DNA of 63,176 nt, counting the filler, from Conidiobolus incongruus B7586 (Eukaryota): assembly GCA_000697335.1 (NCBI GenBank). It is 6 parts of 6 records of this genome, joined end to end, with 100 filler letters (N's around TTAATTAATTAA, not from the genome) between each part and the next. Parts side by side here need not be neighbours in the genome. Positions count along the whole stretch, not along the records: positions 32,031 to 45,215 come from JNEM01006282.1; 5 more parts are not named here. The stretch is one strand, 5' to 3'. The number at the start of each line of letters is the position of its first letter. Position 1 is the stretch's first letter. A program made the translations under genes and the position numbers. Of this stretch, positions 4,317-51,487 are shown one piece after another. A model generated the notes under the pieces. The model was not told the origin of the DNA, did no database searches, and worked only from the letters and a program-made list of their open reading frames with translations.

Positions 4317-5507
4317 ATGAAATTCTTTGACACATTATTGGCTGGCTTCATTGGTTTGTCCATGTTGGGCGTCAATGCTCAAAGATGTGACAGAATTAGA
4401 GCTCGTCCCAATGTTTACAACATGTCTCAAGGTGAATGGGATAGCTATGTCAACGCTGTTAAGAGACTCAACTCGGGTCCTCGCCCTACTCCTTGGGACA
4501 GATTGTCTAACAGACATGTCCAATACTACGGTCAGGTTCACAGCAATCCATTGTTCTTAGCTTGGCACCGTCAATTCCTCTATGAATTAGAGTCCGAATT
4601 AAGAAAGATTGACGAAAATGTCCGTTTGCCTTATTGGGATTGGAGTGTTCACTATACCAATATCAACGAAGATCCCATTTGGCAAAAATACGGTAAAAAC
4701 GGTAATCCCTGGCGCGACATGTGTGTCACTGATGGTTCCTTTGCTGGAATGGGTGTTGCATATGGTTCTGGTTCTTTGAACGGTGGCAGTGATAAATGTT
4801 ATCAACGTTTGGAAAGATTTCAGAATGTCATTTCTGGCCATCACTCCGAAATGGAATCTCTCATCGACTCCGCCAACGACTACGACTTCTGGGAGAATTT
4901 CGAATTCGGCTCTCACGGTCGTGTCCACAATGGAATTGGTAATGATTTCTCTGGCCATGCCAGTCCCTCTGATCCCCTTTTCTATGCTCACCACGCTTTC
5001 ATTGACAAGATCTGGTTCGACAGACAAGTTCGTCATCCTGAATTCACCTTCACTTACGCCGTCTCTGGAAATACCAACTTACCTGGTTACGATGCCTCCG
5101 TCTATAACGTTTTTGATCCCTTCGATCTCTGCTACACCTACCTTGAAGACAACTATTCCTGGTCCAAAAATGTTCGCATGCAAAGCGTCGAACCTGAAAT
5201 TCAAGTTGAAACCTTCACTCCTCTTGCTATGGCTCCTTCCATTGCTAGACAAGGTGTTAATGCCACTGAAGTCAAGGAAGCTCTTCAACAACACGCCAAA
5301 GACTACGTCTTCAAGGATGTCGTTGCCGCTGACCAAAACGAAGGACCCAAGAAGGTCAACGACTGTGAGATCCTTCCCTTACCTGATCCCGTCTCCCTTG
5401 AATACATCCAAAAGATGGGTTATGATGAAGCTACTGTCCGTCGCGTCGAACGTAAGAACGCTTTAAGAATTTCCGAACTCAATAAGCGTTGTCTTGGAGA
5501 ACAATAA
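4317..5507 (+). CDS. Secreted tyrosinase (type-3 dicopper oxidase), intronless
   Basis: Hydrophobic N-terminal signal peptide; CuA motif HVQYYGQVHSNPLFLAWHR; CuB motif HGRVHNGIG...SPSDPLFYAHHAFIDKIW; TATAAATA about 70 nt upstream. Confidence 0.93.
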   Translation: MKFFDTLLAGFIGLSMLGVNAQRCDRIRARPNVYNMSQGEWDSYVNAVKRLNSGPRPTPWDRLSNRHVQYYGQVHSNPLFLAWHRQFLYELESELRKIDENVRLPYWDWSVHYTNINEDPIWQKYGKNGNPWRDMCVTDGSFAGMGVAYGSGSLNGGSDKCYQRLERFQNVISGHHSEMESLIDSANDYDFWENFEFGSHGRVHNGIGNDFSGHASPSDPLFYAHHAFIDKIWFDRQVRHPEFTFTYAVSGNTNLPGYDASVYNVFDPFDLCYTYLEDNYSWSKNVRMQSVEPEIQVETFTPLAMAPSIARQGVNATEVKEALQQHAKDYVFKDVVAADQNEGPKKVNDCEILPLPDPVSLEYIQKMGYDEATVRRVERKNALRISELNKRCLGEQ

Positions 5508-11881: not shown

Positions 11882-13051
11882 TTAAGCTAAACATTCTTCA
11901 TTTTCTTGAGAAATTCGCAAAGCTGTAAGACGTTCGAAACCTCTAACCTTAACTTCGTCATACTTCATATGACGAATGTATTGGATATCCATAGGTTTAG
12001 GAATGGGGTGGACACGACAGCCGGAAGGACCATATTGAGCTGGACCGTTCATGTCGGAAGCGACAACACCATTCATAATATATTCGGTAGCATGCTTCTG
12101 AATTTCCTCAATTGTGGGAGCACCAGTGCGAGTCGAGTTACTTGTTTGAAGAGGAACAAATGGCTCGACATCTTCGAGAGGCATAGCGCGTTGCATTCTG
12201 ACGGTGGCATCCCAAGAGAAATTATCTTCAATATAAGTATAACAATAATCAAATGGGTCATAGGATTGATAGACAAGTTTGTCATAACCAGGAATTGGAG
12301 TTGATCCAGAGAGAGGATAAGTAAGTGTATGTTCTTTATGTCTCATTTGACGATCGAACCAGACTTTATCAATAAAAGCATGATGAGACCAAAAAAGAGG
12401 GTCATTAGGAGAGGCATGACCTTGGAAGTCTTCGCCAATTCCATTGTGGATGAGGCCGTGAGGACCAAGTTCGAAATATTCCCTGAAAAACCCATCGTCT
12501 TGAGCATCGATCAGACCATTGACTGAAGACTTGGTACCTCCAAAAGAACGGTCAAACACATCTCTGCGAGTGAAACATCTCTCACTTCCTTGATCATTAA
12601 TGTCGCTGCCATAAAAGACAGTGAAGTCAGAGAAGGGACCATTACGCACACATTTATCGGAAGGGTCACCATTCTTTCCAAAGATCTGCCAGATAGGATC
12701 TTCATGCATGTTGTCGAAATGGACAGTCCAGTCCCAGTAAGGAATTCTGATTGACTCATCAATCTCTCTCAATTTTGATTCTAATTCAACCAAGTAAATT
12801 CGATGCCATGCTAAAAACATGTGGTCGGAATGGACTTTGTCATAATACTCGACATGTTTTCTGGCAAGTTTATCCCATTCGGTAGGACGAGGACCAGAGT
12901 TAAGCTTTCTGATGGCGTCGAAATATGTTTTAATTTCATCCGAGGTCATAGAGTAAATATTGGGTCTTTGACGAATGTTTCTACATTCTAAAGCATTAAC
13001 AGAAGAAAATCCGAATAAAATGGAAGGAATTAAATACTTAAAAAATTTCAT
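11882..13051 (-). CDS. Secreted tyrosinase, paralog of 4317-5507
   Basis: Signal peptide; CuA HVEYYDKVHSDHMFLAWHR; CuB HGLIHNGIG...SPNDPLFWSHHAFIDKVW; colinear with the first tyrosinase over its full length. Confidence 0.93.
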   Translation of the reverse strand: MKFFKYLIPSILFGFSSVNALECRNIRQRPNIYSMTSDEIKTYFDAIRKLNSGPRPTEWDKLARKHVEYYDKVHSDHMFLAWHRIYLVELESKLREIDESIRIPYWDWTVHFDNMHEDPIWQIFGKNGDPSDKCVRNGPFSDFTVFYGSDINDQGSERCFTRRDVFDRSFGGTKSSVNGLIDAQDDGFFREYFELGPHGLIHNGIGEDFQGHASPNDPLFWSHHAFIDKVWFDRQMRHKEHTLTYPLSGSTPIPGYDKLVYQSYDPFDYCYTYIEDNFSWDATVRMQRAMPLEDVEPFVPLQTSNSTRTGAPTIEEIQKHATEYIMNGVVASDMNGPAQYGPSGCRVHPIPKPMDIQYIRHMKYDEVKVRGFERLTALRISQENEECLA

Positions 13052-30400: not shown

Positions 30401-30785
30401 TGCCGACTTCTACCTCTTCTTTTAAGATTGAGGGAGATGTGTGGAATTAAAGTGATTTTGCATAAAATTTTTTTGAAACTTTCAGTAATGATCAAGATGT
30501 GGACAGACAAATTAGGGCATAAATAGATATATTCAAGTGGACGATTATAAGAATAATGTCTTTGAAAAAAGATAATTAGTATAAATAGCTAATATGAGCT
30601 AATAATTCTCTCAGTTTAAAAATTTAGCAAGTCTGAATGTGATTTTACTAACAAATACTGGTTATTAGTATTGTAAAATATTCATTTAAAAGTATTTTTA
30701 TTTTGTATTTGTAACATCTTTTCTGTTTTTCCGAGTGTTATTACCTATCCTTCTATTATTATATATACTTTCATTTAATTATATC

Positions 30786-31709
30786 ATGAAGGTTAAACCT
30801 ACAAATCACACGAGCGCTTACACCGCCGCCCTTTTAAATGAACTCCCTCCAGGCTTGTATCCTGCCAACCCAGTGCCCAATCCAACAAAGATTCAATACT
30901 CTAAACTCACCGGTAAACCTGTCAGGAAACAAAAAAATCCGTGTAAATCAAGATTATCCTGGACCAAGGCACAAAAATCAAGGTTGGAATCATATTATCA
31001 ACAAGACCCTGATCCTACCTTTGAGATGAGAGAAATGCTAGCTAAAGAATTGGGAGTAGAGACACGTAGCGTTCAGTTCTGGTTCCAGAATAGAAGAAGT
31101 CAAGATCCCCATCGCGCTAAACATAAACAACAACATCCAGTTCAAATGGCCAATAAGAAAGCAATTGACCCTTTCAATCGATTCAATACCCAACTTACTC
31201 CCCATCAGTCCGATGTGCTGCATTATATGGGCTATAACTTCCTGGAACACCATCAATACTCTTCATCTTCCGCTTCATCTAATTCATCCTATCACAGCAT
31301 GCAGCACCCAGCTACTACAACTCCTACACCAGCATTGCCCAATAATTCAATGTTCGAATCTAATGTAGATACTAGCCAGCCTAATAATTATGATTCGATG
31401 GGTTCTATGTACTACTCTACACCTATGTCAGAGCCCGGTCTCTTTAACCAAAACTCTGGTACTCGTTATATGTATCCTAATAATGGTAGTCAGGAACGCG
31501 GATACTCTCCAACGCATCTGGCTTCCTTACAAACAATAAAAATGAGCGACCGGCTGAGTATAGGAACGAACTCTACTTATAATGGAAGCCATAATCAAAA
31601 TTATCCACCCCCCAATCAACCAGATTATATGCTTGATTACAATCCAATTCCATCTGCAGTCAGCTCAGTGAATAATAGTCCCTATGTCAACTTATTTAGT
31701 TGGCAGTAA
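30786..31709 (+). CDS. Homeodomain transcription factor
   Basis: KSRLSWTKAQKSRLESYYQQDPDPTFEMREMLAKELGVETRSVQFWFQNRRSQ (helix-3 WFQNRR); low-complexity S/N/P/Q C-terminus; first ATG at 30786 (the ORF-track start is GTG). Confidence 0.92.
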   Translation: MKVKPTNHTSAYTAALLNELPPGLYPANPVPNPTKIQYSKLTGKPVRKQKNPCKSRLSWTKAQKSRLESYYQQDPDPTFEMREMLAKELGVETRSVQFWFQNRRSQDPHRAKHKQQHPVQMANKKAIDPFNRFNTQLTPHQSDVLHYMGYNFLEHHQYSSSSASSNSSYHSMQHPATTTPTPALPNNSMFESNVDTSQPNNYDSMGSMYYSTPMSEPGLFNQNSGTRYMYPNNGSQERGYSPTHLASLQTIKMSDRLSIGTNSTYNGSHNQNYPPPNQPDYMLDYNPIPSAVSSVNNSPYVNLFSWQ

Positions 31710-33255: not shown

Positions 33256-35684
33256 ATAAAAAATAAGTGAAATCTTTATAAAATAATTTTCTAAATATCA
33301 ATTATACATAGCAATAAAAAATCAAAAAAAAATTATCATTTTATCAAGTATTAAATTATACCATTGCCTGAATATTGATCCACCTGAATAGGTAATTTAA
33401 AAAGGATATTTAACTTGATTTTATAAATCAAACTAAATTTATATAATAATTTTGAAAATCTACAAACAAAATATTTTTAATAGGGAATATTCAAAATTTA
33501 ATTAATTATAATTGAAATTAATAAAATATACATATCATATTCCAAAGAGTAATATTTGGTAAATATAAAATTTATTTAATATCTTTTAATAATTTAAATT
33601 ATCAACTCTTATTGTTTAATTCAATATATGATTTTTTTTCAATATTTTCAAATAGTTCAATAAAATCATTTTTATTAATAACTAAATATTAAATGTTTAG
33701 GAACATTATGGACAAAATGTAAAAAATTTATTACAAAGTTTGATTTTATTTAATAAATGGTTTATTAACAAATATTCAGCTTAGGCTATATTTGCAGATT
33801 CTAATATAATTAATCATCAAGTTTTTCAAAACCTATATGAAATTAAAATGACTCCATTGCAAGAATATGAAAAAATTATTGAGCTTATATATTATCCAAG
33901 TTATATAAAATCCAATTATCAATTAGTATATATCTTCCAAACTTGTTATACAAAAATAAATTTAAAAATTGATATAAATAATAAAAATTGCTGAAATCAT
34001 TCCTAAAGTTTCATTCTCTGACATTTCACAATAAATTAAACAGATGTATGATCCAAGTCTCCCTCCAATCAATTTAGCAATCATGATGGACTGTTCAAAT
34101 TGATTTGATGTTATTTTTGCCTGACGATAATGAGAGAGTTTGGAAAATTATTGGTACTGATTAACGCAACATTCTTATTGGTAACGTAGAAATTATCAAT
34201 TTTGACTTTCAATATTTTCAAAATTTTTAATAAGTGGAGATTTCAAAATCTCTGGATTTGTATGAAGCTTAACTTTCGAGAAAAAATTGCTTGTGATATT
34301 TAGCCACAATAGTTTCTTCATACTTGATGTCATATGGAGATTTTCAGTTAAATCATAGCACTCTAAAGGGTTTGAGAGATTAAGTATAATACATATTGGT
34401 ATAATGATAGCAATTAATTATATAAATTTAACTTATTCGGTAATTTATTTTATTAATATCTGTATATAAGTCCAATATATTATATAATATTATCAAATGA
34501 TTAATACAAATCAACTATTACTACTTATTACGATATTCAAATTAAAAATTTCTTTGATTCTATTTTAATTAATCACATAATAGTTTTAAAATTATAAGAT
34601 TCTTTTGATCAGTTATATAGTTGCCAAATATATCTTCAATTTTGAATATAAATAAAAATATTTTTAATTGATATTATGTTTAACTCAAATTTGCATTTTG
34701 TAATGATTTAAGTATAGAAAGGGTAGTGATTGATATTTTTGAAAACTTTATTAAATATTATATTAGAATCACTTTTGAAATATTATAAAATTCAAATTTT
34801 TATAATAATAAAATATTTTTGACTATTAATATATAAAATTTAAAATTTAGTTTGGATAATAAATTTATAATGTGTATATTATTAGTCTTTCAGATAATCA
34901 ATAACCATATGTATTCAAATTTTCCTTCAATGTAAACGATGTTATAGCTTTAAAGAGCTTGAAATACTTATACAATGTTTAATTAAGTTGATTTAATTAA
35001 ATTATAATACAATAATTTACATAAAATATAGAGAATTTAATTTTAAAAAGTCAAATTTTAATATATGATTATTATTAATATTTTTCGTGATGAAGCATGG
35101 TATATAATATAAAATTAACCAAAATTACTTATCAATTTAGGTAAAGTGTAATATAACTAGATAAAATACAGTTTAACACTGTGGATTATTGCATCTAATC
35201 ATATTAATTCGAATATTTAGAGTAATTCTCTAAATTGGTTTGTTAAATTTAATCAATTAAAAATTATATTTCTATAATAAATTCTGAGAAATTATTGGTT
35301 TTAATATTGACTAAATAAATTAATTTAATTATTAAATATAAGTACATTAAATTGGACAATATTCACTCAGTACTAAGCATCTTGCTTTCAACAAGATTTC
35401 CATTTTGAGTATTCAAATTCAAGACTTGATCAAATTGGGATGTTTACATGTTGATAAATGAACCAATTAAATTGTTATGAAATCATTATATCCTAATTAG
35501 AACCCAAAATTTTCTTGATAAGTTTCTTAGGTTTTATTGCACGGAATTAATATGGGGAAGTAATTGGAGAATAGATGCAATACTACGAACATTACAGAGT
35601 ATATAATAAATTAAGTTTTCTGTAAATCATACTATACCTTATTCAGTTTTAGTTAATCAGTTAGTACTTATTAATCTAATTAGC

Positions 35685-35975
35685 ATGACTTGTTTTAAAA
35701 ACATTCTGATCTTAGTTGCTGGTATTTCTGCACTAGCACCCCATGGTAATACTGACTTATCAGTAGCTCAATCGGTTACCTCTGCTACCAATCCAGTTTC
35801 TAAATTAATGGCAAGTGGATCTAATGCTAATGCCCCTGTAAGCATTGTAACAGCTCCCAAAGCTCGTCGTCAGTGGTTTGGTCATAATTTTGGACATGGA
35901 TACTACCGCCGTCAACAAACAATGAGTGGACATATTGGAAGATTTGACGAAGTTAATAGTTTTTGGAGAAGATAA
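35685..35975 (+). CDS. Secreted Kex2-processed peptide precursor 1 (cores QWFGHNFGHGYY; QQTMSGHIGRFDEVNSFW)
   Basis: Signal peptide and pro-region homologous to the three downstream genes; RR-flanked segments. Confidence 0.8.
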   Translation: MTCFKNILILVAGISALAPHGNTDLSVAQSVTSATNPVSKLMASGSNANAPVSIVTAPKARRQWFGHNFGHGYYRRQQTMSGHIGRFDEVNSFWRR

Positions 35976-37048
35976 TTAGTTTTAATCAGTTGGTCTTATA
36001 TCAATCGATAAGTTGTTACTTATAATAATTGGTTGCTTTGAAATTTTATTGTGTAATAAAATTATATTCACTACCTTTATATAAATTTTATAACCTTTAT
36101 TAATTAAATTTAATATAAGTTATTAAAATGATAGGGTCATTAAATTGTAGAAAAAAAATTTGATAAAAATTATAATATAACAATAATATTAAAAATAATT
36201 GTTTAAATAAAAAATATTTAACTAGTCTAATTTATTATCCTAATTAAAACATAAATAGATAATATATAACTATTCTGGTGATATGTATTAAACTAACGAG
36301 ACTCATTTATCAATTTTATTTTTATGATACATAATTATTGTCAATTTATTATCGGAAATAATGAAAATATAGATATTTATATTGATTAGTTAAATATTAT
36401 ATTATAAACTAAAACATAATTTTATGATTGAGGAAATTTTAATATTTGTGAAATAAATTCAATAACTCACTAAATCAGCTCCTACAAAAATTTTAAATGA
36501 AATGTTAATATCCTGATGATGTGAACAATGAGTGTAATGAAATCTGATTGAATTGATAGAAGAATTGGTAACTAAACGTTTCCTCATCCTTGGATTAATG
36601 TATCTCACTATTTTGTAATAAATCTATATACATAATGATAAAAGCATAATTTTTTCGTAATATAAAAAATAATACTCTTTAGAATTTCGTCAGATAAAGC
36701 TAAATAGTAAGAAATAGTGAAAACTTAATCCTAACAATTTAATCAATAATGTTATTAACATAAATATTAATGATGAGATCATATTCCAATATGTAAACAG
36801 AGATATTAATAATTAGTCAACTAAAAGTAACCATATTTAATGCTTTATAAATAAATTGAATTTATTTTATAATCACCTCATAATACTAAGAAATTAATTA
36901 TTAATTAATTTACCATTCAAAGCAAATTTAAATTTGAGGAAATTTTAAATTTATAAAATATTATTGTTTACAATAAAATTGAATGAAATCATTAATTAAA
37001 ATTTTTTGAAAACTAAATTATTTGGGTTATAGTTTAAGTTATATTATT

Positions 37049-37112
37049 TCAAAATAAACTGGAGTGTAAACCAATGCAAATTCGTATGGATTGCTAGTCA
37101 CATAATATATAA
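37049..37112 (+). promoter_or_regulatory. Conserved upstream motif TCAAAATAAACTGGAGT plus TATATAA of precursor 2
   Basis: Identical 17-mer at 38934-38950, variant at 40561-40577; all about 138 nt before the ATG, TATATAA about 81 nt before the ATG. Confidence 0.65.
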
Positions 37113-37186
37113 TAGAGTGATAAGTTATCGATATACATTATAGTATTGTAATATTTATTTATTCATTAAAGCTTAATTTATTCGAA

Positions 37187-37714
37187 ATGACTTCTTTCAC
37201 TAATATCCTTCTCTTGATCGCTGCTACTGCTGCCATTGCTCCCATTAGAAATACTGATCTTCCTGTGACTGAATCGGTTACAAATGCTGCTGATCCTTTT
37301 GTACAACAACTTACCGAGTTAGTTGCTAGTGGTCTTAAAGCTAATTCTCTCGCTCAACCAGAGACTATCACTAATACCGTCACAGGACAATCCGAACCTG
37401 TAACTGAAACTGTAACTGATGCTGCTTCAGTGATTCGTCGCCAATGGTATCGTAATGGCTACTACCGTCGTAGTTTGAACGCCGATACTCCTGCCAAAGC
37501 TAAATCATCTGAATCTGACAAGGCTCGTCGTCAATGGTATGGATCTAGAAATGGCTACTATCGTCGCAGCGTTAGTGCTGATACTCCTGCCAAAGCTGGA
37601 AGTACTGCCACTTCCTCCCAACCCAATACTGAGGCCTCAAGCGAGTCTGAATCTCAAAACAGTTCTAAAACTCGTCGTGATTGGTATGATAACTATGGTA
37701 ATGGTTACTATTAG
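37187..37714 (+). CDS. Secreted Kex2-processed peptide precursor 2 (cores QWYRNGYY, QWYGSRNGYY, DWYDNYGNGYY)
   Basis: Signal peptide MTSFTNILLLIAATAAIAP; cores preceded by RR and followed by RR or stop; S/T/A/E/K-rich spacers. Confidence 0.88.
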   Translation: MTSFTNILLLIAATAAIAPIRNTDLPVTESVTNAADPFVQQLTELVASGLKANSLAQPETITNTVTGQSEPVTETVTDAASVIRRQWYRNGYYRRSLNADTPAKAKSSESDKARRQWYGSRNGYYRRSVSADTPAKAGSTATSSQPNTEASSESESQNSSKTRRDWYDNYGNGYY

Positions 37715-38933
37715 ATAGCTAATTCTATTTTACATATATACCTCCCCTATTTACCATAATATATAGACATTAATAAACCATCATTATTTCTATTATTAAA
37801 TTACTTTTTTCTATCTATTATCATTGAAATTATATCTTTTGATATTAAAAGAATATTTCCATAGATAATTTGTCATTTTATTTGATAAATACATGAGATT
37901 TTCTAAAATTATCAATGTCTATAATATTAATATATATATATATATATTTAATTTCTTTTATGATTTTGAAATTTTTTATACAAAATTTCAAAATTTGTAA
38001 ATGTCAATAAAAGTAATAACCCTATTAATTGTTTAACTATTTTTATTAGAAAAGCTTTATAAATAAAATTTTTTAAAAAAAATTATTATTTAATTTTCAA
38101 GTTATAAATTTATATAATAAATTATTTTGATACTTTATTAAAAATTTTTTGATAATATAATTTTAAAGTTATCAAATATAAGTAATTTTTAAATTTGAAT
38201 TTAAATTATTTGCGATTAATCATAAATTATGGTAATATTAAATTATTAAATAATAACTACATCTCATATAATAGTTGAAAATATTGTATAAAATATTGAT
38301 GTTTTTCTATAAATTCATTATGTAGTGAATGAATCAAGTCATTTCTTTAGAATAATATGTTGATACTAATGTTTGAGAATTGTCAAATAAAAACAGTTTC
38401 CAAATTTTATTATATATAAATATGAAAAACACTATTAGAATTTTATTAAATAAAAACAATGATATTGTAAATATAATTCGGAAAATTATTTTCATTAAAG
38501 AACATAATGTTTAATTGAATATAACTCTAAACGATTAGTATACGATATATTTTATACTATTCAAATAAACCATAGAACATTGAAATAAGTTGCATTAAAA
38601 TCATTTCTTTTTAGTTCATATTTATTATAGTCATCAATTTTACCATACAAATGAACTCTAATAAATTGATAATGTGTTAGATATGAACCTATTAGCATTA
38701 AAACTATCCACAAATTGAAAAAAAAACTAATATTGATTATTCAAATATTAATAAACTTTATCTTAAACTATAAAGTGCTAAATTGATTTAAATATTGTTC
38801 CTATTCAAGGTAAATTCATGTTGAATAATGCAAGTATTTAAATTGACTCGTGTCGATAATTAAATATTGATGATTTCAATAGTCTAAATCTTATAGACTA
38901 AATGAATATGGTTAAAATCAAATTTGTATTAAA

Positions 38934-38997
38934 TCAAAATAAACTGGAGTTGACGTGGGAAAAGGTTGATGTGAAATGATGTTTCATGGGTATATAA
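38934..38997 (+). promoter_or_regulatory. Conserved upstream motif plus TATATAA of precursor 3
   Basis: TCAAAATAAACTGGAGT at 38934, TATATAA at 38991. Confidence 0.65.
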
Positions 38998-39072
38998 TGA
39001 GTTGATTGAATAATGAATAGATATTATAGCATATTATCAATTATTTAATTATCAAGGCTTAATTTATTCGAA

Positions 39073-39546
39073 ATGACTTCTTTCACTAATATCCTTCTCT
39101 TGATCGCTGCTACTGCTGCCATTGCTCCCATTAGAAATACTGATCTTCCTGTGACTGAATCGGTTACAAATGCTGCTGATCCTTTTGTACAACAAGTTAC
39201 CGAGTTAGCTGCTAGTGGTTTTAAAGCTATTTCTCTCGCTCAACCAGAGACTATCACTAATACCGTCACAGGACAATCCGAACCTGTAACTGAAACTGTA
39301 ACTGATGCTGCTTCAGTGATTCGTCGCCAATGGTATCGTAACGGCTACTACCGTCGCAGCTTGAATGCTGATACTCCTGCCAAAGCTAAATCATCTGAAT
39401 CTGACAAGGCTCGTCGTCAATGGTATGGATCTAGAAATGGCTACTATCGTCGCAGTGTTAGTGCCGATACTCCTGCCAAAGAAGCTAAGTCGGCAGAATC
39501 TGAAAAAGCTCGTCGCCAATGGTATGGTTATGGAAATCGCTATTAA
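39073..39546 (+). CDS. Secreted Kex2-processed peptide precursor 3 (cores QWYRNGYY, QWYGSRNGYY, QWYGYGNRY)
   Basis: Near-identical to precursor 2 through about codon 136; RR-delimited cores. Confidence 0.88.
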   Translation: MTSFTNILLLIAATAAIAPIRNTDLPVTESVTNAADPFVQQVTELAASGFKAISLAQPETITNTVTGQSEPVTETVTDAASVIRRQWYRNGYYRRSLNADTPAKAKSSESDKARRQWYGSRNGYYRRSVSADTPAKEAKSAESEKARRQWYGYGNRY

Positions 39547-40560
39547 CTTCTTTCAATCAAGATCAAATTATTAGAGATCCTTAGACTCATTTTTCTACCA
39601 CATTATATATCATTAATCATTCCAATAAACTACATACGATTTTGTTATTAAATATTGTTTTTAATTTTTGATAATTTATATTGTAATTATGTTTCCATTT
39701 ATTTGAATGGCAATGTTCTATCTTTTGAAAATTGATAATGTGTATTTTATCCTAATAATCAATATGACTTAAAAATTATATAAAATAATTATTTTTAATA
39801 TATCAAAAAATATATGTTTACCTTGAAATAGATTATCACTATTTAAATTTTATTATATCTTTTATATCTAATTAAATATTCTGGAGAGTATATAATTATT
39901 TTACTTAAATATTAGGAAATAAATTATTAATTCTATTAAATAATATTTAAAAAACTTTATGTTATTTAAAATTTATAAGACGTTAATTTTTGACTCTATA
40001 TCTTTATTTTTTTTAAATATCAAATTTTTTATTATTCAATTCTATACATTTTTTAAACTTCATATCGATTATGGTGCAAGATTTTAACTAAACTTATACT
40101 TCATTACATCACCTATATTATATAAAATTAAAACTATTAATTTCATTATGATTTTAAATATATTGTTAATGCAATTTTAAATACTAATCTAGTTAAACTA
40201 ATTATAATCTGGATATATTGAAATATTTGAATTAAAAATGTTGTTCAAATACACTAAGTATAACGAACTAAAAAGTTTTTGTGATATAATATTAGAACAA
40301 ACTTAAAAAATAAAGCACTTATCAAATCAATAAATACAAACTAGTCCAATTCAGTTAATAAATTTTATACCTAATGTTCAATTACCTAATATTCTATGTA
40401 CCTCCAACCCAATTCAAATTCAAATCCCTATTTGAGTGAATTGAATGAAAATTTGAATGAAATATATTGATGTATTTAGTTGTTTTAAATTTAATGATAT
40501 CATAGAAGAAAATTTCCCAAAAACTAATTTAGTTTTAGTTTAAATGAAGGTTCAATTACG

Positions 40561-40624
40561 TCAAAAATAAACTGGGGACCGTATGATAGTAATTTGAAGG
40601 ACAAGCTCATTATATAGTATATAA
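40561..40624 (+). promoter_or_regulatory. Conserved upstream motif plus TATATAA of precursor 4
   Basis: TCAAAAATAAACTGGGG at 40561, TATATAA at 40618. Confidence 0.6.
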
Positions 40625-40698
40625 GTGTATTAATTAATGTTAAATATTTATTATAAAATCTTTAGAATTATTTAATTACACTATATTATCTATTCATC

Positions 40699-41481
40699 AT
40701 GACTTCTTTCAATCAAATTCTTTTCTTGATCGCTGCTACTGCTGCTATTGCTCCTATTAGAAATGCTGATCTTCCAGTGGCTGAATCGGTTACAAATGCT
40801 GCAAGCCCAGTTGTCGAACAGGTTTCCAAGGCAGGAGAACCCGTATCTAAGTTAGTTGCTAGTGGTATGAATGCCGTTAACCCTGAAAAACCTGAAACTG
40901 TTACTAATACTCCCAAGGCTCAATCTGAATTTCCTGAACAAACTGTAGCAGAAACTGATCCCAAAACTCGTCGTCAATGGCATGGTTATGGAAACGGCTA
41001 CTACCGTCGCAGCTTGAATATTGATGCTCCTACCGAAGTTAAATCATCCGAATCTGACAAGGTTCGTCGTCAGTGGTATGGTAATAGTTACTACCGTCGC
41101 AGTATTAATGCGGATACTCCAACCAAAACTGAAGCTACCCTTTCTCCACTTAAAGCCAAAGCAGAATTGTCTAGCGATTCCAAAGTTGAAGCCAATGCTA
41201 AGGCTCGTCGTCAATGGTATGGTAATAACTACTACCGTCGTAGTGTCAATGTCGATGTTCCATCTAAATCCAATGCTGCTGTTTCTCCTCCCAAAACTAA
41301 GGCAGAATCGTTAACCGAAGCCAAAACTGAAACTGATGCTAAGGCTCGTCGACAATGGTATGGTAATGGTTACTATCGTCGTAGTATCAATGCTGATAAT
41401 CCAGCTAAATCCGATGATACCGTTGCTCCACCTAAAGCCAAGGCTGAATCCTCTATCGATATCAAAGCTAAATCTGCATGA
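40699..41481 (+). CDS. Secreted Kex2-processed peptide precursor 4 (cores QWHGYGNGYY, QWYGNSYY, QWYGNNYY, QWYGNGYY)
   Basis: Signal peptide; four K(T/V/A)RR-core-RRS units with repeated spacers. Confidence 0.9.
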   Translation: MTSFNQILFLIAATAAIAPIRNADLPVAESVTNAASPVVEQVSKAGEPVSKLVASGMNAVNPEKPETVTNTPKAQSEFPEQTVAETDPKTRRQWHGYGNGYYRRSLNIDAPTEVKSSESDKVRRQWYGNSYYRRSINADTPTKTEATLSPLKAKAELSSDSKVEANAKARRQWYGNNYYRRSVNVDVPSKSNAAVSPPKTKAESLTEAKTETDAKARRQWYGNGYYRRSINADNPAKSDDTVAPPKAKAESSIDIKAKSA

Positions 41482-43504
41482 AATGTTTGTCCCAAAGGTT
41501 TGTTACTAAATACTGTAATAGCCAAACCAATAAGATTGCCAATTTTAGAATATATTCGTAGCATCAATATTTACTATCATATATTTTAAACACTCCAATA
41601 AATTTTATATTGAAGTCTATTTAATCATTTATAATATACACTAACTTTGATTAATTAAGGTAAAATTTTATATTGTTACGGAATATTTTTTATTATGCTT
41701 TTTATTGGTTACTATAAATTTCACATTTATGATATTCAACTCTTGAAAATATTAACCAATTTATATTACATCAAAATAAAACTGTATTATATTTAATATT
41801 AGGAAACTCCAAAACTTGGATTTATTTTCAATACAATATAGTAGGAAAATAATTATTTCAGTATTCTATAAAATATTTTGATGATTCATATTAATTGAAA
41901 TTAAAAGTTATCAATGTTTGATTATTAATTTCAACTTATATTTTATAACCTTATAGGTGAAAATTATCATGGATAGCATATATATTATCAAAATGCGATT
42001 TATCTTATTTTTGATATAATATACTTATTCCTTTATTTTATATACATAATACTTTATACTATTTTTTTTCTTAATTTTATAAATTTTTATTTATATCTTA
42101 ATTATTGTTTATTATATAAAAATATTTTTAATTTATAATATAACAAATATATTGAGTAGTATATTAATATTTTTATTATAAGTTTAAATATAAAAGATAT
42201 AACTTAATAACAATATCATAATTTAAAATATTTTAATATTGAATATTTAAAATTAAAACTATTAAAAATATTTTTGTAATTATACAGGATTTGAAAATTT
42301 AAAAAATTCAATATTAATTTTAAATAATTTATTATATAAATAACTCTTTAATAAATAGTATATATAATAGATAAGTCTTGGATTAACAAAAAATTGTTAT
42401 TAATAAAATTTATATATATATATTTATTATTATACATGATTGGTTAGAATAGCTTTTTTATTTATATAATTAATAAAATTATATTCAAATATTCAAATTA
42501 TATTATAGTTAATTATAATAGAAATATTAATATTTATTATTTTTTCTAACTTTTTTTATTAATTACTTTAATTCAGTATCTATATAATATATTTTAATTA
42601 TATGATTTAGGAAACTTAATTATCGATTTTTGATTAAATATAATATTCATAAAGGTATATATATATCAAAATTAATCAAGTAATAAATATTGATTTTCTA
42701 ATAACAATATATAATCGAAATATTAATTTTTTGGTAAAATGATATATAAACTCATAATGTAATGTCATTCTGTAACATTGAATATAATCTTTTATTTATA
42801 ATAATGGATATTGATATTAAATTATTTATTATAATTGCTTAATACTGAAAATTCTCATTTTTGGAAATTATACATAGTTAAAAATTTCTTATATCTAATT
42901 TACTAAGAAAATTTAATAATTTCACTAATTAACTTTATAATTATATTTATTATTTAAAAAAATATCCAAAATTTCTATTAAATAAAATTTATAGCATAAA
43001 TATATTTCAAATTTTGAATTATTTAAATAGATTAACTTAATTTAGAATTAACAATAATATTCTTGAAAGCAAAATATATTTTGTTATAATACAACTCTAT
43101 ATATGATCTTTTAAAATAGATAAATTATATTGCTTTGTGTTTTAAGATTATTAATATTATTATATTTTTGATATAATAATCATGCTCTTATAATAATCAT
43201 AGTTAAAAAACATAGTTGATATTAAATAACTAATAAAAATATTTAAATTTTTTTAATAAATAATAATTAATATGGTTAGAATTAAAATTTATAATTTTTA
43301 TCCAATAATAAGTATGAGTCAATATTCCAAATTATAAATTAATTTTAATATTATCAATTTAATATATATTGATGGAATTTATTAAAATCCAAAAAAGCTT
43401 AATATATCAGTCTTTAATATTTATATACTAATAAGATTTATATAGAAAACTTAACAAAAAATTAAAATTTGCAAGGTAAATAGATAATAAAAACTATATT
43501 ATTA

Positions 43505-45215: not shown

Positions 45216-45315
45216 NNNNNNNNNNNNNNNNNNNNNNNNNNNNNNNNNNNNNNNNNNNNTTAATTAATTAANNNNNNNNNNNNNNNNNNNNNNNNNNNNN
45301 NNNNNNNNNNNNNNN
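45216..45315. other. Artificial contig linker / assembly gap
   Basis: N44-TTAATTAATTAA-N44. Confidence 0.95.
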
Positions 45316-46904
45316 TCAGAGCTTAAATATAATTTTACATAGAAAAATGATATGGCTGATAAATAATGGTAAAACATGTATAATCCACTTTCTGGATTAC
45401 ATTGTGAAATGTTATAGATGCTTTTCGCTGCTTTCATAGCTCTTAAAGTGTGATAATCAACCATATTGGTGACAGGGTCAAATTCGGGTGGTTGTTGAGT
45501 ATGAACCAGGAGAGTCCATTGATGGTACATACAAGTAAAGATCCAAACATATTTTTGAATGATAGGTAAATGGTGTGGAGAGGGGTAGCGTAAGTATAAA
45601 TACAAGAACTCATTACAACTATTAACTAAGCAAAAGTCAAATAGTTTGCCTAAAAAATGACAGCATCTTTGAAGTTGGTCTGAATCAAGGTTACTACTAT
45701 TCAGCTCATTTTTCAAAGTAAAAACTGACATATGATTAGTAGCAGGCATCCAATAACGATCATAAACGTTTCGGAGTAAGCACAGACATTCCGCTTCTAA
45801 TATTTCTTGCTCGTCTGTTGTTCCTTCAGTAGTTTGAAATTTTGGATCCAACTTTGAAATGATTGGCATCATGAAGATATAGAAGGGTGGTAAAGTTAAA
45901 GTGCCTGAAACATGCTGGTCATGGCTCAAGGCCATACTTCGTATACACCGCCTCTCGTTCTGGTATATATCCTTTAACCCTTTTATATCTAAATGGATTC
46001 CCAGGATAGAGGACATTTGGCATGCCTGATAAAAGTATCGTAGCGACTGCTTTGATAATCCTCTAAGAAAAATAGCGTATGAAAAGATAAAAAGAGCTTG
46101 GCAAGTTTGTATTGAAGCTTTGAAAAAGTTCTTTTTCAATTGAATTCTGGCCAAGTGTTCGAGATATGTTAATAACTCCTTGTTTTGATGGCTATTGTAT
46201 TGATATCCTACAAATAACAGAACCGAAAGTAATACCGGCTCGACATGATTAATCCTCTGATAAAATAGCTGTTTACCAAAATAAGTAATCCAATGATGAA
46301 AGTATTTAAAATAATTATCTAATGTCTGCTGTTTAAAATTTGGATGATATAGCTCCTTTATCCATGCGTTGTCCATTCTAAAATGAGCTTTTGTTAATCC
46401 ACCAAACATACCTAGCTTAATCTGGTCAAAAAACCACCCCACTTCCCTTCCAATATTTGGATTAACATCGATGATTTGACCATATAACATAAGCATAAGA
46501 TGAGATTGGAATCGGATTACTGGGTCACTTTTCTGTGTAGGTTTATTGAATATTCCATTAGATACTATTGGGAAAATTTCAGAAAAAATATTTAAATGGT
46601 AGTACTTATCAACAACCGATTCACTTAATGTATTATTATCATCAAATTGATATTTTATCAACTTTCTTTGTCCAATTTGACCCAAAACAACTTTTCCCGT
46701 ATTCTCAAACTGCTTGCTTTTACGTCTTTTATAACTACCTTTACGATAGCTACACGAGGTATTAGCTTTCAAGCATCTTATACACTCAGGCAGTTCTCTT
46801 CCACATCGAACTTTTTGCATGCGACATCTATCACAAGACATTTTACTTTCTTGAAGAGTATTAGAAGTTGCTCTATGAATTGTAGATATGTTGTTACGAA
46901 TCAT
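45316..46904 (-). CDS. Zn(II)2Cys6 (GAL4-type) transcription factor, 3' end lost in gap
   Basis: CDRCRMQKVRCGRELPECIRCLKANTSC binuclear cluster; middle-homology-like region (YFKYFHHW..., QALFIFS..., ACQMSSILGIH...ERRC). Confidence 0.9.
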
Positions 46905-49236
46905 AATGTATTGGCAAATGATTTAAACTTTGCAAACATTGAAATACCAAACTTATTTATAATTAAAATTCTAATTAAAATCAGAACGATTGATATGATT
47001 GGATCACTTTTTGATAAAGTTTTTACCATTTTGCAGTTTACTCCATATGAAATCAAATAGTTGCATCTAGATTATGCTTTGTGGAGTTCAATTATTCTAT
47101 TAAATCTATTTATTTGCTTAAAATCTTTCATATTTTGAAAATGAACCTATTAATCTAGCTTTATCTGCCTTAACCTCTCTATTAGTGAATTTATTCTGTT
47201 ATTATTTAAATATAGAGTCGCATAGTTAGAACATTATTATTAACCTATATTGAAGTCGATATACATAGCAAAGATCAATATAATCAAATTAGTTTACATC
47301 GGTCATTTTGCAGAATTATGCATACCTTGAAAAGGCGTAATGTGGCTTATTGAGCTTCAAGTGTGGTGTTTCTTTAAGTCCCTTCAAAATCTATATCATG
47401 TGAGGTGCATTTTTATAAAAATTTGCAGAACTTCAACTCTATCAAATTATCTACTCTTTACAAATTCCTTCTTTCACTTATAATATTCTCTCTGCCGATA
47501 TATATTATTCTTAATTACATATTAATTTCGGATGTCTAGTTTATTTTATGCCAAGCTAATAGCCATTATTCTTTTGAAATAATACTTTAGATTTGAAATT
47601 CATGTGAAACAAAAAAAATGTACTCTGATTAGATTAGTGGTTATCAGTTATTGACAATATAAAAATTTATAGCTCATACTATTAATTAAAATCTTTTAAT
47701 TTATTATACATTAGTTATCTTACTTTTTACATAAGAAATCTGTCGTCTAATAAATTTTAAATTTTGTTAATATCAATTTTCAAAAAATAATTTATATTAT
47801 AGAATTTTGGGAATTATCAAAAATTAATTTTATTAATTTTTTTCATAATTTAAATGGAACTATATTAATAAATATTCAATATTGGAAATCTTATAACAAA
47901 AGTATTGTTGATATCATTTATTGTGGGCAAATATTTAATAATTAATCATTGGAATCGAATATACAAAATCATAATTTACATTTAATTCTAGTAGTTCAAG
48001 CAAATTATTTCAATTTATTCAACATTTTTATTTAATTAAACCTCCGATTTCTTCCAAAATAAAAATTATCATGAAAATGATATTGTATATTTTAAATAAT
48101 AGGTAATTCCCGAAAAATATCTATATATGGAAATCTTTTAAACTTGGCCTTTTGCTTAATTGACATTGAAAAGAATTAATATGTAAATATATATTTGATT
48201 ATATTTTCAAACTTTTTTCACTATCTATAATATATAATATATAATAGAAAATTGATAAAATCTATTATCTTACTTATTTCAATAACACCCTCTTAAAGAA
48301 TAGAAACACATATGTTATAAATTTTGATAAAATTTTCTTAATTTATAATTATTCTCAAAATAACGAGATAGTGATTTTAATAACTTATTTCAAATTTAGT
48401 TTTTTACTGCTAAATATTATATGAATATATTAGGAGAGTTGATATTAAGCTTGACATGCTATTTCATTTAAATTATATCTACTTAATTAGTTTAAAATAT
48501 TACCAAAAATATTTAATAATCTAATTTGTTTAAATTAACACTAATTGATTAATAATCATTATTCCTCCGAATTTTCTTTTATAATTCTGCTTATTCCTTA
48601 AAATGAAATAATGATTATTTAATATATAGATAGCATTAAAGTTATGATTAAGTACTTGCATCATATACTATTTAATATCAATTACCGCCTTTAATTATTA
48701 AATTTGATTAAATGGAAATATTTTTTGATCTACTAATTGTTATTGATATATTTGTTTTATAGCTTTATAAAATATTTTGAAAAGCTAGTATTTTGATTAA
48801 TTAATATACCCTTAAATATTTATATATAATTAATACTGTTTTACCATGTTTTTTTCAGCGCAATGTATGAATAAATCTAATCAATTTATTCTAGATTAAA
48901 ATTTATAAATAATTGATTTTTACAACGATTTATAAAATTATTACTATAAGATATGTTGTGTTTTATATTAAGTTTTATAAATAAAGATGGTAGTTAGAAA
49001 AGTACTCAAAATATGATTTAGTAAATTATTTATTAATCCTGCTCTTTAACGTATCGGGACTGTAGGTTTAAATAATTGAATCAATGAATGATATGGGATT
49101 TGGATAAAATCTAATAAAGAAAATAAAGAGAACAAAGAGTATCCTTCAATTATAGACTGACAAAGCCAGCTTAAAATAGAAATAATATTGGTTTAGCTAT
49201 CAAACTGGAAGAGATGATTAATTTTGAAATACAACA

Positions 49237-49237
<1 letters not shown>

Positions 49238-49274
<37 letters not shown>
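49238..49274. repeat. (TA)n microsatellite
   Basis: Uninterrupted TA run of about 18 units. Confidence 0.85.
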
Positions 49275-49277
<3 letters not shown>

Positions 49278-49823
49278 CAATTTTTATTCTTGATTCATTT
49301 ATAAATCATACAATATTACAAAATTGATAGCTGTTACATTATAATACTTAAAATTGAAACAAACTAATAGCTAAATGGCATTTTTCAATAATACCAAGAG
49401 TACCAAATTCAATAAAACTCCAAAATACATTGATATAATGGTGTAATATATTAAAGTGATAAAAGCATTTAATATAAAGAATCTTGATTATAAGGCAGAT
49501 TCAAGAAAAAGTGTTTGCATTATTCTAATACAAATATTTTACTATAGTTTAAATTTGGACATAAGTTCTTTGGTATAAATATTTCATTATTATTATTATA
49601 TAAATTAAATAATAACAATATTTTAGAATAATATATAAATTAAATTTTAATATATTATTTATAAATATCAATATATAATATAACGTAGCTATTTTTTATT
49701 ATTAATACTTTCTTCCATATATTTAATAAGCATTTAATACCTAAAAAATAATTTCTTTAATAAAAACTCAAATTTGATATTTTTAAATTAATATAATATA
49801 ATTATACGAATTTCTTTTCCTAA

Positions 49824-50957: not shown

Positions 50958-51387
50958 TGTAAGCACAACGAAACAATACTAATATAATGCAAAAAAAGAC
51001 TTAATATAAAAGTAACGTGACACGGAACGTGGTAATATAGCGTGGAAATATAAACAAAGTTTAATTAAGCTTCGAACACGGATGAGTCACTGATATATTA
51101 GGATTTATATTAGGTAGTGTCAATATACTATAATATTGACATAAAATAGTCTTACTTTTGGAAATAATAGAAAAAATAATAAATAATAAGAATTGAGAGA
51201 AAAAGAAAAACCTAGTTTATTAAATAATTTAATATTATTTATATTATTAATTTAATTATAAAATTATCAATTAATTATATAATTTATAATAAATTGAACT
51301 ATATAAAAATATATATATATAAGTTTAAAGAACTAGTCTTTTAACATAATATTTATATATTATTTATTATAATCTTAATTTTTTTAA
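50958..51387 (+). mobile_element. Probable LTR start (TGTAAGCAC...) inserted into the mariner; runs into gap
   Basis: Abrupt switch to CpG-containing sequence beginning TGTAAG, the same terminal hexamer as the Gypsy LTR at 57378. Confidence 0.45.
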
Positions 51388-51487
51388 NNNNNNNNNNNNN
51401 NNNNNNNNNNNNNNNNNNNNNNNNNNNNNNNTTAATTAATTAANNNNNNNNNNNNNNNNNNNNNNNNNNNNNNNNNNNNNNNNNNNN
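51388..51487. other. Artificial contig linker / assembly gap
   Basis: N44-TTAATTAATTAA-N44. Confidence 0.95.

What the first reader, a model, noticed from the sequence alone, without database searches (positions are those of the whole stretch)
35685..41481. Tandem array of four secreted precursors releasing a family of QW(Y)..(N/G)YY peptides: candidate new fungal RiPP/signalling-peptide system
Seen: four co-oriented intronless genes, each with a homologous signal/pro region and RR-preceded cores of 8-12 aa: QWFGHNFGHGYY; QWYRNGYY x2; QWYGSRNGYY x2; DWYDNYGNGYY; QWYGYGNRY; QWHGYGNGYY; QWYGNSYY; QWYGNNYY; QWYGNGYY. W2 and the terminal Tyr are invariant while the middle varies and the spacers drift, so selection appears to act on the cores. 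Established: this signal + dibasic + repeat layout is that of Kex2/Kex1-processed repeat proteins, such as the alpha-factor precursor and the dikaritin precursor UstA; N-terminal Gln commonly cyclises to pyroglutamate. Inference: the products are pGlu-Trp/Tyr-rich peptides, possibly aromatic cross-linked, acting as signals, toxins or adhesives. I do not recognise this core family.
Basis: partly seen in the sequence, partly recalled or inferred. Interest (0 to 1): 0.92.

Follow-up and report, generated by a model that had tools for sequence, protein, structure and literature searches.

The report
Tandem fungal repeat-peptide precursor genes
Four neighbouring genes of a Conidiobolus-like fungus encode unfolded precursor proteins that are predicted to be secreted and cut at Arg-Arg pairs into nine different short tryptophan- and tyrosine-rich peptides; the gene layout is a common, catalogued fungal one, but this peptide family matched nothing in any collection searched and its likely signalling role is untested.

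Summary
Four co-oriented, intron-free ORFs (96, 175, 157 and 260 aa) carry 11 cores (9 distinct) of the form [Q/D]W[Y/F/H]…Y(Y). Each core is bracketed by Arg-Arg or ends at the stop codon, and no such core occurs elsewhere in the window's six frames (shuffles give 0.02). Constraint is concentrated on RR-core-RR (pN/pS 0.08-0.14). The pro-region and spacers score 0.5-0.9. The precursors have a hydrophobic N-terminus, no cysteine, no Pfam domain and no predicted fold.

[quoted passage not shown] Tyrosinase relatives place the window in that phylum, near Conidiobolus.

No relative was found in 1.84 billion representative proteins, in the 5.8-billion-protein word index, in metagenome contigs or in the paper library.

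The window holds no DUF3328, P450, methyltransferase or transporter gene. The only candidates are two tyrosinases 23-31 kb away, and they form an old pair also present in C. coronatus.

Expression, cleavage and function are untested. Verdict: a real, orphan member of a known kind, of moderate interest.

The parts
35685..35975 (+). g1, 96-aa divergent precursor. It has a signal-like N-terminus, one core QWFGHNFGHGYY (35871-35906) between RR pairs, then QQTMSGHIGRFDEVNSFW-RR-stop, which aligns as a decayed second unit.
37187..37714 (+). g2, 175-aa precursor with three cores: QWYRNGYY (37442-37465), QWYGSRNGYY (37532-37561) and DWYDNYGNGYY (37679-37711). The last core ends exactly at the stop codon.
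39073..39546 (+). g3, 157-aa precursor and a recent duplicate of g2 (dS 0.13). Its cores are QWYRNGYY (39328-39351), QWYGSRNGYY (39418-39447) and QWYGYGNRY (39517-39543). The last core ends at the stop codon.
40699..41481 (+). g4, 260-aa precursor with four cores: QWHGYGNGYY (40975-41004), QWYGNSYY (41071-41094), QWYGNNYY (41212-41235) and QWYGNGYY (41353-41376). The last three lie in 141-nt tandem units.
35600..35606 (+). TATATAA box at -85 of g1. The same heptamer lies at 37106-37112 (-81 of g2), 38991-38997 (-82 of g3) and 40618-40624 (-81 of g4).
   Evidence: The conserved position is the evidence, because the heptamer is common in this AT-rich DNA.
35477..35485 (+). ATGAWWTCA block at -208 of g1. 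It also lies at 36983-36991 (-204 of g2), 38870-38878 (-203 of g3) and 40494-40502 (-205 of g4). It is a candidate shared cis-element, which is an inference.
   Evidence: 25 matches in the window against 9.19 expected; 0 of 100 shuffles reach 25
37054..37064 (+). ATAAACTGGRG block upstream of g2. It also lies at 38939-38949 (g3) and 40567-40577 (g4), but not in g1.
   Evidence: 3 matches against 1.81 expected; 30 of 100 shuffles reach 3, so the count alone is not significant
4317..5507 (+). Context only: tyrosinase 1 with a signal-like N-terminus, 30 kb upstream. No link to the array has been shown.
11882..13051 (-). Context only: tyrosinase 2 with a signal-like N-terminus, 23 kb upstream. No link to the array has been shown.
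45264..46841 (-). Context only: Zn2Cys6 + Fungal_trans transcription factor, the next gene downstream of g4 and convergent with it. No link has been shown.

Best explanation
The four co-oriented, intron-free genes encode paralogous, cysteine-free, domain-less precursors of the Kex2-processed repeat protein (KEP) kind. They are predicted to be secreted, cut after every Arg-Arg pair by a Kex2-like protease, trimmed by a Kex1-like carboxypeptidase and likely cyclised at the N-terminal Gln to pyroglutamate. This would give linear 8-12-residue QW...YY peptides that would act as diffusible extracellular signals.

Shown directly:
- the genes, the 11 cores and the exclusive placement of RR at core borders;
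- the ORF ends of g2 and g3 coinciding with a core end;
- stronger protein-level constraint on RR-core-RR than on the rest of the precursor;
- the absence of a predicted fold.

Inferred from the KEP literature: secretion, cleavage, trimming and pGlu formation.

Inferred only from design (size class, conserved aromatic ends around a Gly/Asn turn-prone middle): the signalling role.

My odds are about 0.75 that the peptides are released as described, and about 0.35-0.4 that their job is signalling.
For: - Anatomy. The most hydrophobic 10-residue stretch is residues 7-16 (Kyte-Doolittle mean 2.6-2.8), with small residues at -3/-1 for cleavage after residues 13-16. All 21 RR pairs lie at core borders. 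Cores start directly after RR. The g2 and g3 ORFs stop exactly after the last core.
- Chance control: 11 observed against 0.02 expected.
- Real genes. Coding GC is about 40% against about 15% between genes, and the GC islands match the ORF limits. A TATATAA box lies at -81 to -85 in 4 of 4 genes. Whole-gene dN/dS is about 0.4.
- Selection. pN/pS is 0.10 for RR-core-RR, 0.48 for the spacer head and 0.90 for the spacer body at similar pS. Between genes it is 0.14 and 0.08 for cores, against 0.54-0.55 for the pro-region and 0.67-0.75 for spacers. Synonymous codon variation at the invariant R, Q and Y positions shows the conservation is at the protein level.
- No fold: AlphaFold2 mean pLDDT 39, pTM 0.11, and the only N-terminal helix is residues 3-15. 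No Pfam family passes its cut-off.
- Literature. RR counts as a Kex2/Kex1 site in both KEP surveys. Peptides of 9-24 aa are the alpha-pheromone size class. KEP peptides with pGlu derived from Gln were detected by MS. KEPs that lack a nearby DUF3328 gene are taken to be linear.
- Weak lead: the second nearest language-model cluster is the MF_alpha_N/MF_alpha family, score 0.80.
Against: - There is no expression, secretion or cleavage data for these genes.
- SignalP was not available. The residue after the best A-x-A site is Pro, so the exact signal cleavage site is uncertain.
- No orthologue was found, so all selection estimates come from paralogues within one genome. They rest on 12-65 codons per class and on non-independent pairs, and gene conversion could distort pS.
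- Nine distinct cores among 11 copies is more heterogeneous than classical pheromone precursors, which repeat one peptide (from my own knowledge).
- No receptor, glutaminyl cyclase, Kex2 or Kex1 gene could be looked for, because no whole genome is held.
- The atlas score is below the tool's own 0.9 threshold for anything more than a lead.
- Knock-outs of six Coprinopsis KEP genes gave no phenotype in axenic culture, and the authors suggested a role towards other organisms rather than self-signalling.
Confidence: 0.45

Rival explanations
1. The peptides are released as above but are aimed at other organisms. They would act as effector, antagonist or defence peptides against an insect host, competitors or grazers, rather than as self-signals.
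For: A four-gene array with recent duplication (g2/g3 dS 0.13) and nine different cores looks like birth-and-death diversification. Vogt et al. saw no axenic phenotype in KEP knock-outs and proposed a role in biotic interactions. Known linear KEP products include plant effectors and the toxin candidalysin. The nearest relatives of the neighbouring tyrosinase are from insect-associated Entomophthoromycotina.
Against: The cores are under strong purifying selection, not diversifying selection (pN/pS about 0.1). After trimming of RR the peptides are short, near-neutral and not amphipathic, unlike membrane-active toxins. No target is known.
Confidence: 0.2
2. The Tyr-rich cores are substrates of secreted tyrosinases. 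These would oxidise Tyr to DOPA/quinone and cross-link the peptides, giving a modified RiPP-like product or an adhesive or melanin-like material.
For: Every core carries 2-4 Tyr and ends in Y or YY. Two tyrosinases with signal-like N-termini lie 23 and 30 kb upstream, about 4-7 genes away. A tyrosinase is needed for ustiloxin and phomopsin cyclisation and sits 7-8 genes from the precursor gene in those clusters. Tyr-rich KEP peptides in another early-diverging fungus, Rhizophagus, raised the same question.
Against: No DUF3328 gene is in the window, and none was found outside Dikarya. Without DUF3328, tyrosinase genes do not accumulate near KEP genes: only 4.3% of KEPs have one within 15 genes. 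Each window tyrosinase groups with a different C. coronatus tyrosinase (100/99 and 81/95 support), and those two share one contig. The pair is therefore old, while no relative of the KEPs was detected among the proteins searched, which include C. coronatus entries. The ring size would vary from 8 to 12 residues if the conserved ends were joined.
Confidence: 0.15
3. The RR pairs are not cut. The products would be intact, disordered secreted or wall-bound proteins whose Tyr/Trp patches serve in cross-linking or adhesion.
For: The proteins are disordered, Ser/Thr/Ala/Lys/Glu-rich and cysteine-free. Cleavage has not been shown. RR is a poorer Kex2 site than KR in yeast (from my own knowledge).
Against: RR occurs 21 times and only at core borders, on both sides of every internal core. 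Two ORFs end exactly at a core end. Spacer bodies evolve almost neutrally (pN/pS 0.90) and vary from 18 to 35 residues, which fits discarded linkers. No wall-anchor or PIR-type feature was seen and no Pfam family matches.
Confidence: 0.1

Closest known systems
Kex2-processed repeat proteins (KEPs) as catalogued by Le Marquer et al. 2019 (PMC6339444) and Umemura 2020 (PMC7329392)
   Same: Signal-like N-terminus, several short similar cores separated by dibasic sites, and no other domain. Such genes often sit near another KEP gene (9.7% of those without DUF3328). Zoopagomycota are the phylum with most KEPs per strain, and C. coronatus has 11 or 19 by the two surveys.
   Different: This core family (QW...YY) matched nothing in any search here. 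Only RR is used, on both sides of each core. There are four paralogous genes in tandem. Whether the catalogued C. coronatus KEPs resemble it could not be checked. Umemura's table lists accessions only, and Le Marquer's Table S2 is on an external website.
Ascomycete alpha-factor-type pheromone precursors (yeast MF-alpha, N. crassa Ccg-4)
   Same: Secreted pro-protein with repeated short peptides freed by Kex2/Kex1. The peptide size class is similar, with Trp near the N-terminus and an aromatic C-terminus. The last repeat ends at the stop codon. There is no DUF3328 neighbour. The residue-level likeness to alpha-factor and to QW-initial Sordariomycete pheromones is from my own knowledge.
   Different: No MF_alpha or MF_alpha_N match even at E<=10. 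No Ste13 X-Ala/X-Pro dipeptides. There are two dibasic sites per repeat instead of one. Nine different cores replace one repeated peptide. The lineage is one whose pheromone chemistry is unknown.
Dikaritin (ustiloxin / phomopsin / asperipin-2a) precursors
   Same: KEP-type precursor with Tyr-containing cores of similar length (8 aa in asperipin-2a) and a tyrosinase within a few genes.
   Different: The defining DUF3328/UstYa cyclisation factor is absent from the window and from the whole phylum as surveyed. No other tailoring or export gene lies nearby.
Coprinopsis cinerea KEP-derived pyro-Glu peptides (Vogt et al. 2022, PMC9769878)
   Same: Linear peptides that begin with Gln right after the dibasic site. 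They were detected as pGlu forms in culture supernatant, showing that this maturation route operates in fungi.
   Different: Unrelated sequences from a basidiomycete. Those peptides are acidic and Pro-rich, not aromatic.
Animal prohormones with dibasic-bracketed repeats, such as pro-TRH
   Same: Each copy is bracketed on both sides by dibasic pairs and starts with a Gln that becomes pGlu. Umemura draws the same analogy. The details of pro-TRH are from my own knowledge.
   Different: No C-terminal Gly for amidation, an unrelated sequence, and a fungal secretory pathway.

Membership tests
Kex2-processed repeat proteins (KEPs) | N-terminal signal peptide | tested here: met
   Tested by heuristic only, because no SignalP was available. 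The hydrophobic stretch is residues 7-16 (KD mean 2.6-2.8). (-3,-1)-rule sites follow residues 13-16. The AlphaFold helix 3-15 is the only N-terminal structure.
Kex2-processed repeat proteins (KEPs) | Several similar short motifs separated by dibasic (KR/RR/KK) sites | tested here: met
   g2 and g3 have 3 cores and g4 has 4, each bracketed by RR. g1 has one intact core and one decayed unit, so g1 alone would not qualify.
Kex2-processed repeat proteins (KEPs) | Actual cleavage by Kex2 and trimming by Kex1 | not testable with these tools
   This needs a secretome or heterologous-expression experiment. No genome is held in which to look for kex2/kex1.
Alpha-factor-type pheromone precursors | Match to Pfam MF_alpha / MF_alpha_N, or BLAST similarity to validated pheromone precursors | tested here: not met
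   No such Pfam match at E<=0.01 or E<=10. The atlas neighbour scores 0.80 and is only a lead.
Alpha-factor-type pheromone precursors | Ste13 X-Ala/X-Pro dipeptides between the dibasic site and the mature peptide | tested here: not met
   All 11 cores start directly after RR.
Alpha-factor-type pheromone precursors | Mating-type-dependent expression and a cognate Ste2-like receptor | not testable with these tools
   No RNA run is listed and no genome is held.
Dikaritins (ust-RiPS) | DUF3328/UstYa gene near the precursor gene | tested here: not met
   No DUF3328 match in 11 + 38 ORFs taken from the window's GC islands. The 38 were picked by eye from 174 candidate ORFs, leaving out alternative frames inside already identified genes. 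None was found outside Dikarya in Umemura 2020.
Dikaritins (ust-RiPS) | Tyr in the core and a tyrosinase in the cluster | tested here: inconclusive
   Tyr is present in all cores. The tyrosinases lie at 23 and 30 kb but form an older conserved pair, and co-regulation is untested.
Dikaritins (ust-RiPS) | Side-chain macrocyclised product | not testable with these tools
   Needs mass spectrometry or NMR.

The most novel reading that the evidence does not exclude
The QW...YY peptides are the peptide pheromones or hormones of an entomophthoralean fungus. This would be an alpha-factor-like ligand system that exists outside the Dikarya, in a group whose mating and communication signals are chemically unknown. 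The conserved aromatic ends would be read by a receptor, and the four-gene array would supply a graded set of ligands.
Probability: 0.12. Interest if true: 0.8.

Novelty: new member of a known kind. Interest (0 to 1): 0.4.

Why it matters
KEPs are the source of fungal alpha-pheromones, several effectors, a human-cell toxin and the dikaritin mycotoxins, yet most catalogued KEPs have no known product or role. [quoted passage not shown]

This locus is a clean test case. It has nine short peptides that are easy to synthesise, with exact predicted masses. There is clear evidence that selection acts on the peptides and not on the linkers. Two secreted tyrosinases sit nearby and could be tested as modifiers. 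If the peptides prove to be signals, or tyrosinase substrates, that would extend peptide signalling or KEP-based peptide chemistry beyond the Dikarya. If they prove inert, the locus is one more orphan KEP family.

Tried and rejected
- Whole-genome search: no genome is held for this window.
- RNA evidence: no RNA holder is listed. Only 4 DNA runs of one sample and study hold the stretch.
- Protein homology, all negative:
  - g4 against the word index: 3428 candidates, none at E<=0.01.
  - The four-protein profile at E<=10: 7994 candidates scored, none.
  - The exhaustive profile search of 1.84 billion representatives: 1 hit. That hit, P0024, is an 837-aa bacterial TPR protein whose repeat junctions happen to resemble the YYRR-S-x-x-A-D-P junction. 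I rejected it as a chance resemblance.
- Metagenome contigs: 211 pattern stretches with none confirmed. A degenerate DNA pattern for RRQWYGN-x-YYRR gave 0 matches.
- Papers: six core strings gave 0 papers, and 'Conidiobolus' + 'Kex2' gave 0 papers. The core strings were absent from the held supplements of both KEP surveys. Those supplements hold no sequences, so this says little. Kamel 2017 shows the Rhizophagus motifs only in image files.
- Pfam: Rhabdo_glycop_FD matched g4 at 21.8 bits, below its 22-bit cut-off and with no qualifying stretch, so I rejected it.
- ESM Atlas: best scores 0.82 and 0.80, below the tool's 0.9 mark, so they are leads only.
- The homeodomain gene at 30783-31709 as a mating-locus marker: it matches generic paired-like homeodomains (DUX4, LHX, engrailed), so it gives no evidence.
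- Decayed repeats downstream of the genes: none seen in three frames.
- The GC island 33988-34424 holds no convincing ORF.
- Motif counts: GTATATAAKT gave 5 against 2.97 expected, and ATAAACTGGRG gave 3 against 1.81. Neither is enriched, so only positional conservation counts.
- Read laying: the higher depth of the short contigs over the shared g2/g3 5' part was not used as a copy number. X1 has three bins without cover at 40850-41551, and that is not used as evidence either.
- Earlier scan notes: none for this genome, and none alike by sequence.

Full report
**What is there.** The window is very AT-rich: about 15% GC between genes and about 40% in coding ORFs. At the stated coordinates, four ORFs on the + strand each fill one GC island: g1 35685-35975 (96 aa), g2 37187-37714 (175 aa), g3 39073-39546 (157 aa) and g4 40699-41481 (260 aa). 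They are uninterrupted. Each has a TATATAA box 81-85 bp upstream of its ATG. The first 143 nt are homologous in all four at 60-99% identity, and 38 protein columns are invariant.

A six-frame scan for [KR]R-[QDE]W-x(2-12)-[YW] followed by a dibasic pair or a stop found 11 matches. Shuffled windows give a mean of 0.02 and residue-shuffled precursors give 0.001. Splitting each protein at RR yields exactly pro-region, core, spacer, core and so on. All 21 RR pairs are core borders, and there is no KR. In g2 and g3 the ORF stops immediately after the last core.

Contigs of four DNA runs bridge g1-g2, g2-g3 and g3-g4 without a differing letter. The four runs are from one sample that may be the assembly's own source, so this is not independent support.

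**Selection.**
- Whole-gene dN/dS between paralogues is about 0.4, and g2/g3 are recent duplicates with dS 0.13.
- Within the three 141-nt units of g4, pN/pS is 0.10 for RR-core-RR, 0.48 for the first nine spacer residues and 0.90 for the rest of the spacer, at similar pS of 0.37-0.46.
- Between genes, cores + RR give 0.14 (g2/g4) and 0.08 (g3/g4). The pro-region gives 0.54-0.55 and the spacers give 0.67-0.75.
- The invariant Arg, Gln and Tyr positions use different synonymous codons in different units, so the conservation is at the protein level.

The head of each spacer, S-[LVI]-[NS]-x-D-x-P-x-[KE], is also moderately constrained. It may help cleavage at the preceding RR, which is an inference.

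Caveats apply. All comparisons are between paralogues in one genome, involve few codons and are not independent, and gene conversion could distort them.

**What the proteins look like.** They have no cysteine and no Pfam family above threshold, even at E<=10. AlphaFold2 gives mean pLDDT 39 and pTM 0.11, and its only N-terminal structure is a helix at residues 3-15. Residues 7-16 are the most hydrophobic stretch (Kyte-Doolittle mean 2.6-2.8), and small residues satisfy the (-3,-1) rule for cleavage after residues 13-16. SignalP was not available, so secretion is predicted and not shown.

The genes prefer CGT, GCT and ACT codons more than six neighbouring genes do. For Arg, CGT is used 32 of 51 times against 33 of 120. 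This could reflect high expression or simply shared descent of the repeat units.

**Organism and neighbourhood.** No whole genome is held. The tyrosinase at 4317-5507 is 63% identical to a Conidiobolus coronatus protein and 57-61% to unnamed JGI proteins. It is 35-38% identical to proteins from Neoconidiobolus, Entomophthora and Massospora. The window therefore comes from a Conidiobolus-like member of the Entomophthoromycotina, and its own proteins are not in the collection.

Neighbours found by Pfam are two tyrosinases, a TPR gene, LARP1 with an inverted partial copy, an SH3 gene, a homeodomain gene, a Zn2Cys6 factor, an Inhibitor_I9 ORF and an S8 subtilase fragment. I scanned 11 long ORFs and 38 of 174 shorter GC-rich ORFs. 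The 38 were chosen to cover the GC islands outside already identified genes. No DUF3328, P450, methyltransferase or transporter appeared.

In a tree of 25 tyrosinases, tyr1 groups with C. coronatus P0001 and its relatives (support 100/99), and tyr2 groups with P0005/P0006 (81/95). P0001 and P0006 lie on one C. coronatus contig. The pair thus predates the species split and is not peculiar to this locus.

**Relatives of the precursors.** None was found.
- The word-indexed search of 5.8 billion proteins gave nothing for g4 (3428 candidates, E<=0.01) or for the four-protein profile (7994 candidates, E<=10).
- The exhaustive HMMER search of 1.84 billion representatives gave one hit. It is a bacterial TPR protein whose repeat junctions resemble YYRR-S-x-x-A-D-P by chance.
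- Two metagenome scans gave nothing.
- The core strings occur in no paper of the library.

The family is thus an orphan in everything searchable here. No fungal genome collection could be searched, and small ORFs in relatives may be unannotated.

**Comparison with what is known.** The anatomy is that of Kex2-processed repeat proteins.
- I read passages of Le Marquer 2019 (PMC6339444), Umemura 2020 (PMC7329392) and Vogt 2022 (PMC9769878).
[quoted passage not shown] Zoopagomycota have the most per strain (11.56).
- No DUF3328 protein was found outside Ascomycota and Basidiomycota. Tyrosinase genes lie within 15 genes of only 4.3% of KEPs. Another KEP gene lies nearby for 9.7% of those without DUF3328.
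- C. coronatus is credited with 11 KEPs by Le Marquer and 19 by Umemura. The held tables give counts or accessions only, and Le Marquer's sequence table is on an external site. Likeness to those KEPs could therefore not be tested by name. The HMMER searches, which cover NCBI proteins of that species, found none.
- Vogt et al. detected KEP-derived peptides by mass spectrometry, many as pGlu forms derived from N-terminal Gln. They also note that linear, minimally modified KEP peptides are not counted as RiPPs.

**Most likely mechanism.** The precursors would enter the secretory pathway. A Kex2-like protease would cut after each RR, and a Kex1-like carboxypeptidase would remove the trailing RR. 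The N-terminal Gln would cyclise. The result would be nine linear peptides of 8-12 residues with conserved aromatic ends, pGlu/Asp-Trp-aromatic and (Gly/Asn)-Tyr-Tyr, around a Gly/Asn-rich middle. Predicted masses are listed. I put about 0.75 on this maturation.

For function I commit to diffusible signalling, at about 0.35-0.4. The reasons are the size class, the receptor-ligand-like design and the absence of tailoring genes. The rivals are peptides aimed at other organisms (0.2), tyrosinase-oxidised or cross-linked products (0.15) and uncleaved structural proteins (0.1).

Points against signalling are the heterogeneity of the cores, the absence of any receptor or expression evidence, and the lack of axenic phenotypes for KEP knock-outs in Coprinopsis.

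**Promoters.** Besides the TATA box, an ATGAWWTCA block lies at -203 to -208 in all four genes, including the divergent g1. The window holds 25 matches against 9.19 expected, and 0 of 100 shuffles reach 25. An ATAAACTGGRG block is shared by g2-g4 but is not enriched by count. Co-regulation is a reasonable inference and remains untested.

**Verdict.** Its RiPP / cross-link component has no support. This is a new, orphan member of a well-catalogued kind, of moderate interest. It would become highly interesting only if the peptides prove to be pheromones or tyrosinase substrates in this early-diverging lineage.

Noticed in passing
window 16516-17566 (+) and 19104-20797 (-): A LARP1 gene (LARP1_HEAT and La domains) has a near-identical inverted partial copy about 1.5 kb away. 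The copy differs by only a few residues and starts at an N run. It could be a recent inverted duplication or an assembly artefact.
   Followed up: no
window 16416, 31931, 45216, 51388, 59073: Five paired N runs, each made of 44 N, 12 bases and 44 N. Two of them cut into ORFs (the LARP1 copy and the Zn2Cys6 gene).
   Followed up: no
window 4317-5507 (+) and 11882-13051 (-): Two tyrosinases with signal-like N-termini. Each groups with a different C. coronatus tyrosinase, and those two share one contig there, so this is an old conserved gene pair.
   Followed up: partly
window 35477-35485, 36983-36991, 38870-38878, 40494-40502: An ATGAWWTCA block at -203 to -208 of all four precursor genes. It is a half-palindromic candidate regulatory site of unknown binder, and the motif is over-represented in the window (25 against 9.19).
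   Followed up: partly
window 59173-59505 (-) and 62505-63176 (-): An Inhibitor_I9 propeptide ORF (E 2e-11) lies next to an N run. About 3 kb away there is a separate S8 subtilase catalytic fragment at the window edge. These look like two subtilase genes, and the first is interrupted by the gap.
   Followed up: partly
window about 47500-59000: A stretch of more than 11 kb at 12-16% GC with no ORF-bearing GC island, unlike the rest of the window.
   Followed up: no
P0024 (protein): A bacterial TPR-repeat protein whose repeat junction mimics the core-spacer junction (YYRR, then A/S-x-x-A-D-P). It is a reminder that short repeat junctions can give E about 1e-8 profile hits by chance.
   Followed up: yes
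window 35685-35975 (g1): After its single core, g1 encodes QQTMSGHIGRFDEVNSFW flanked by RR and RR-stop. This aligns with a second unit whose upstream RR has become GR, so it is either a decayed core or a new 18-residue peptide.
   Followed up: partly
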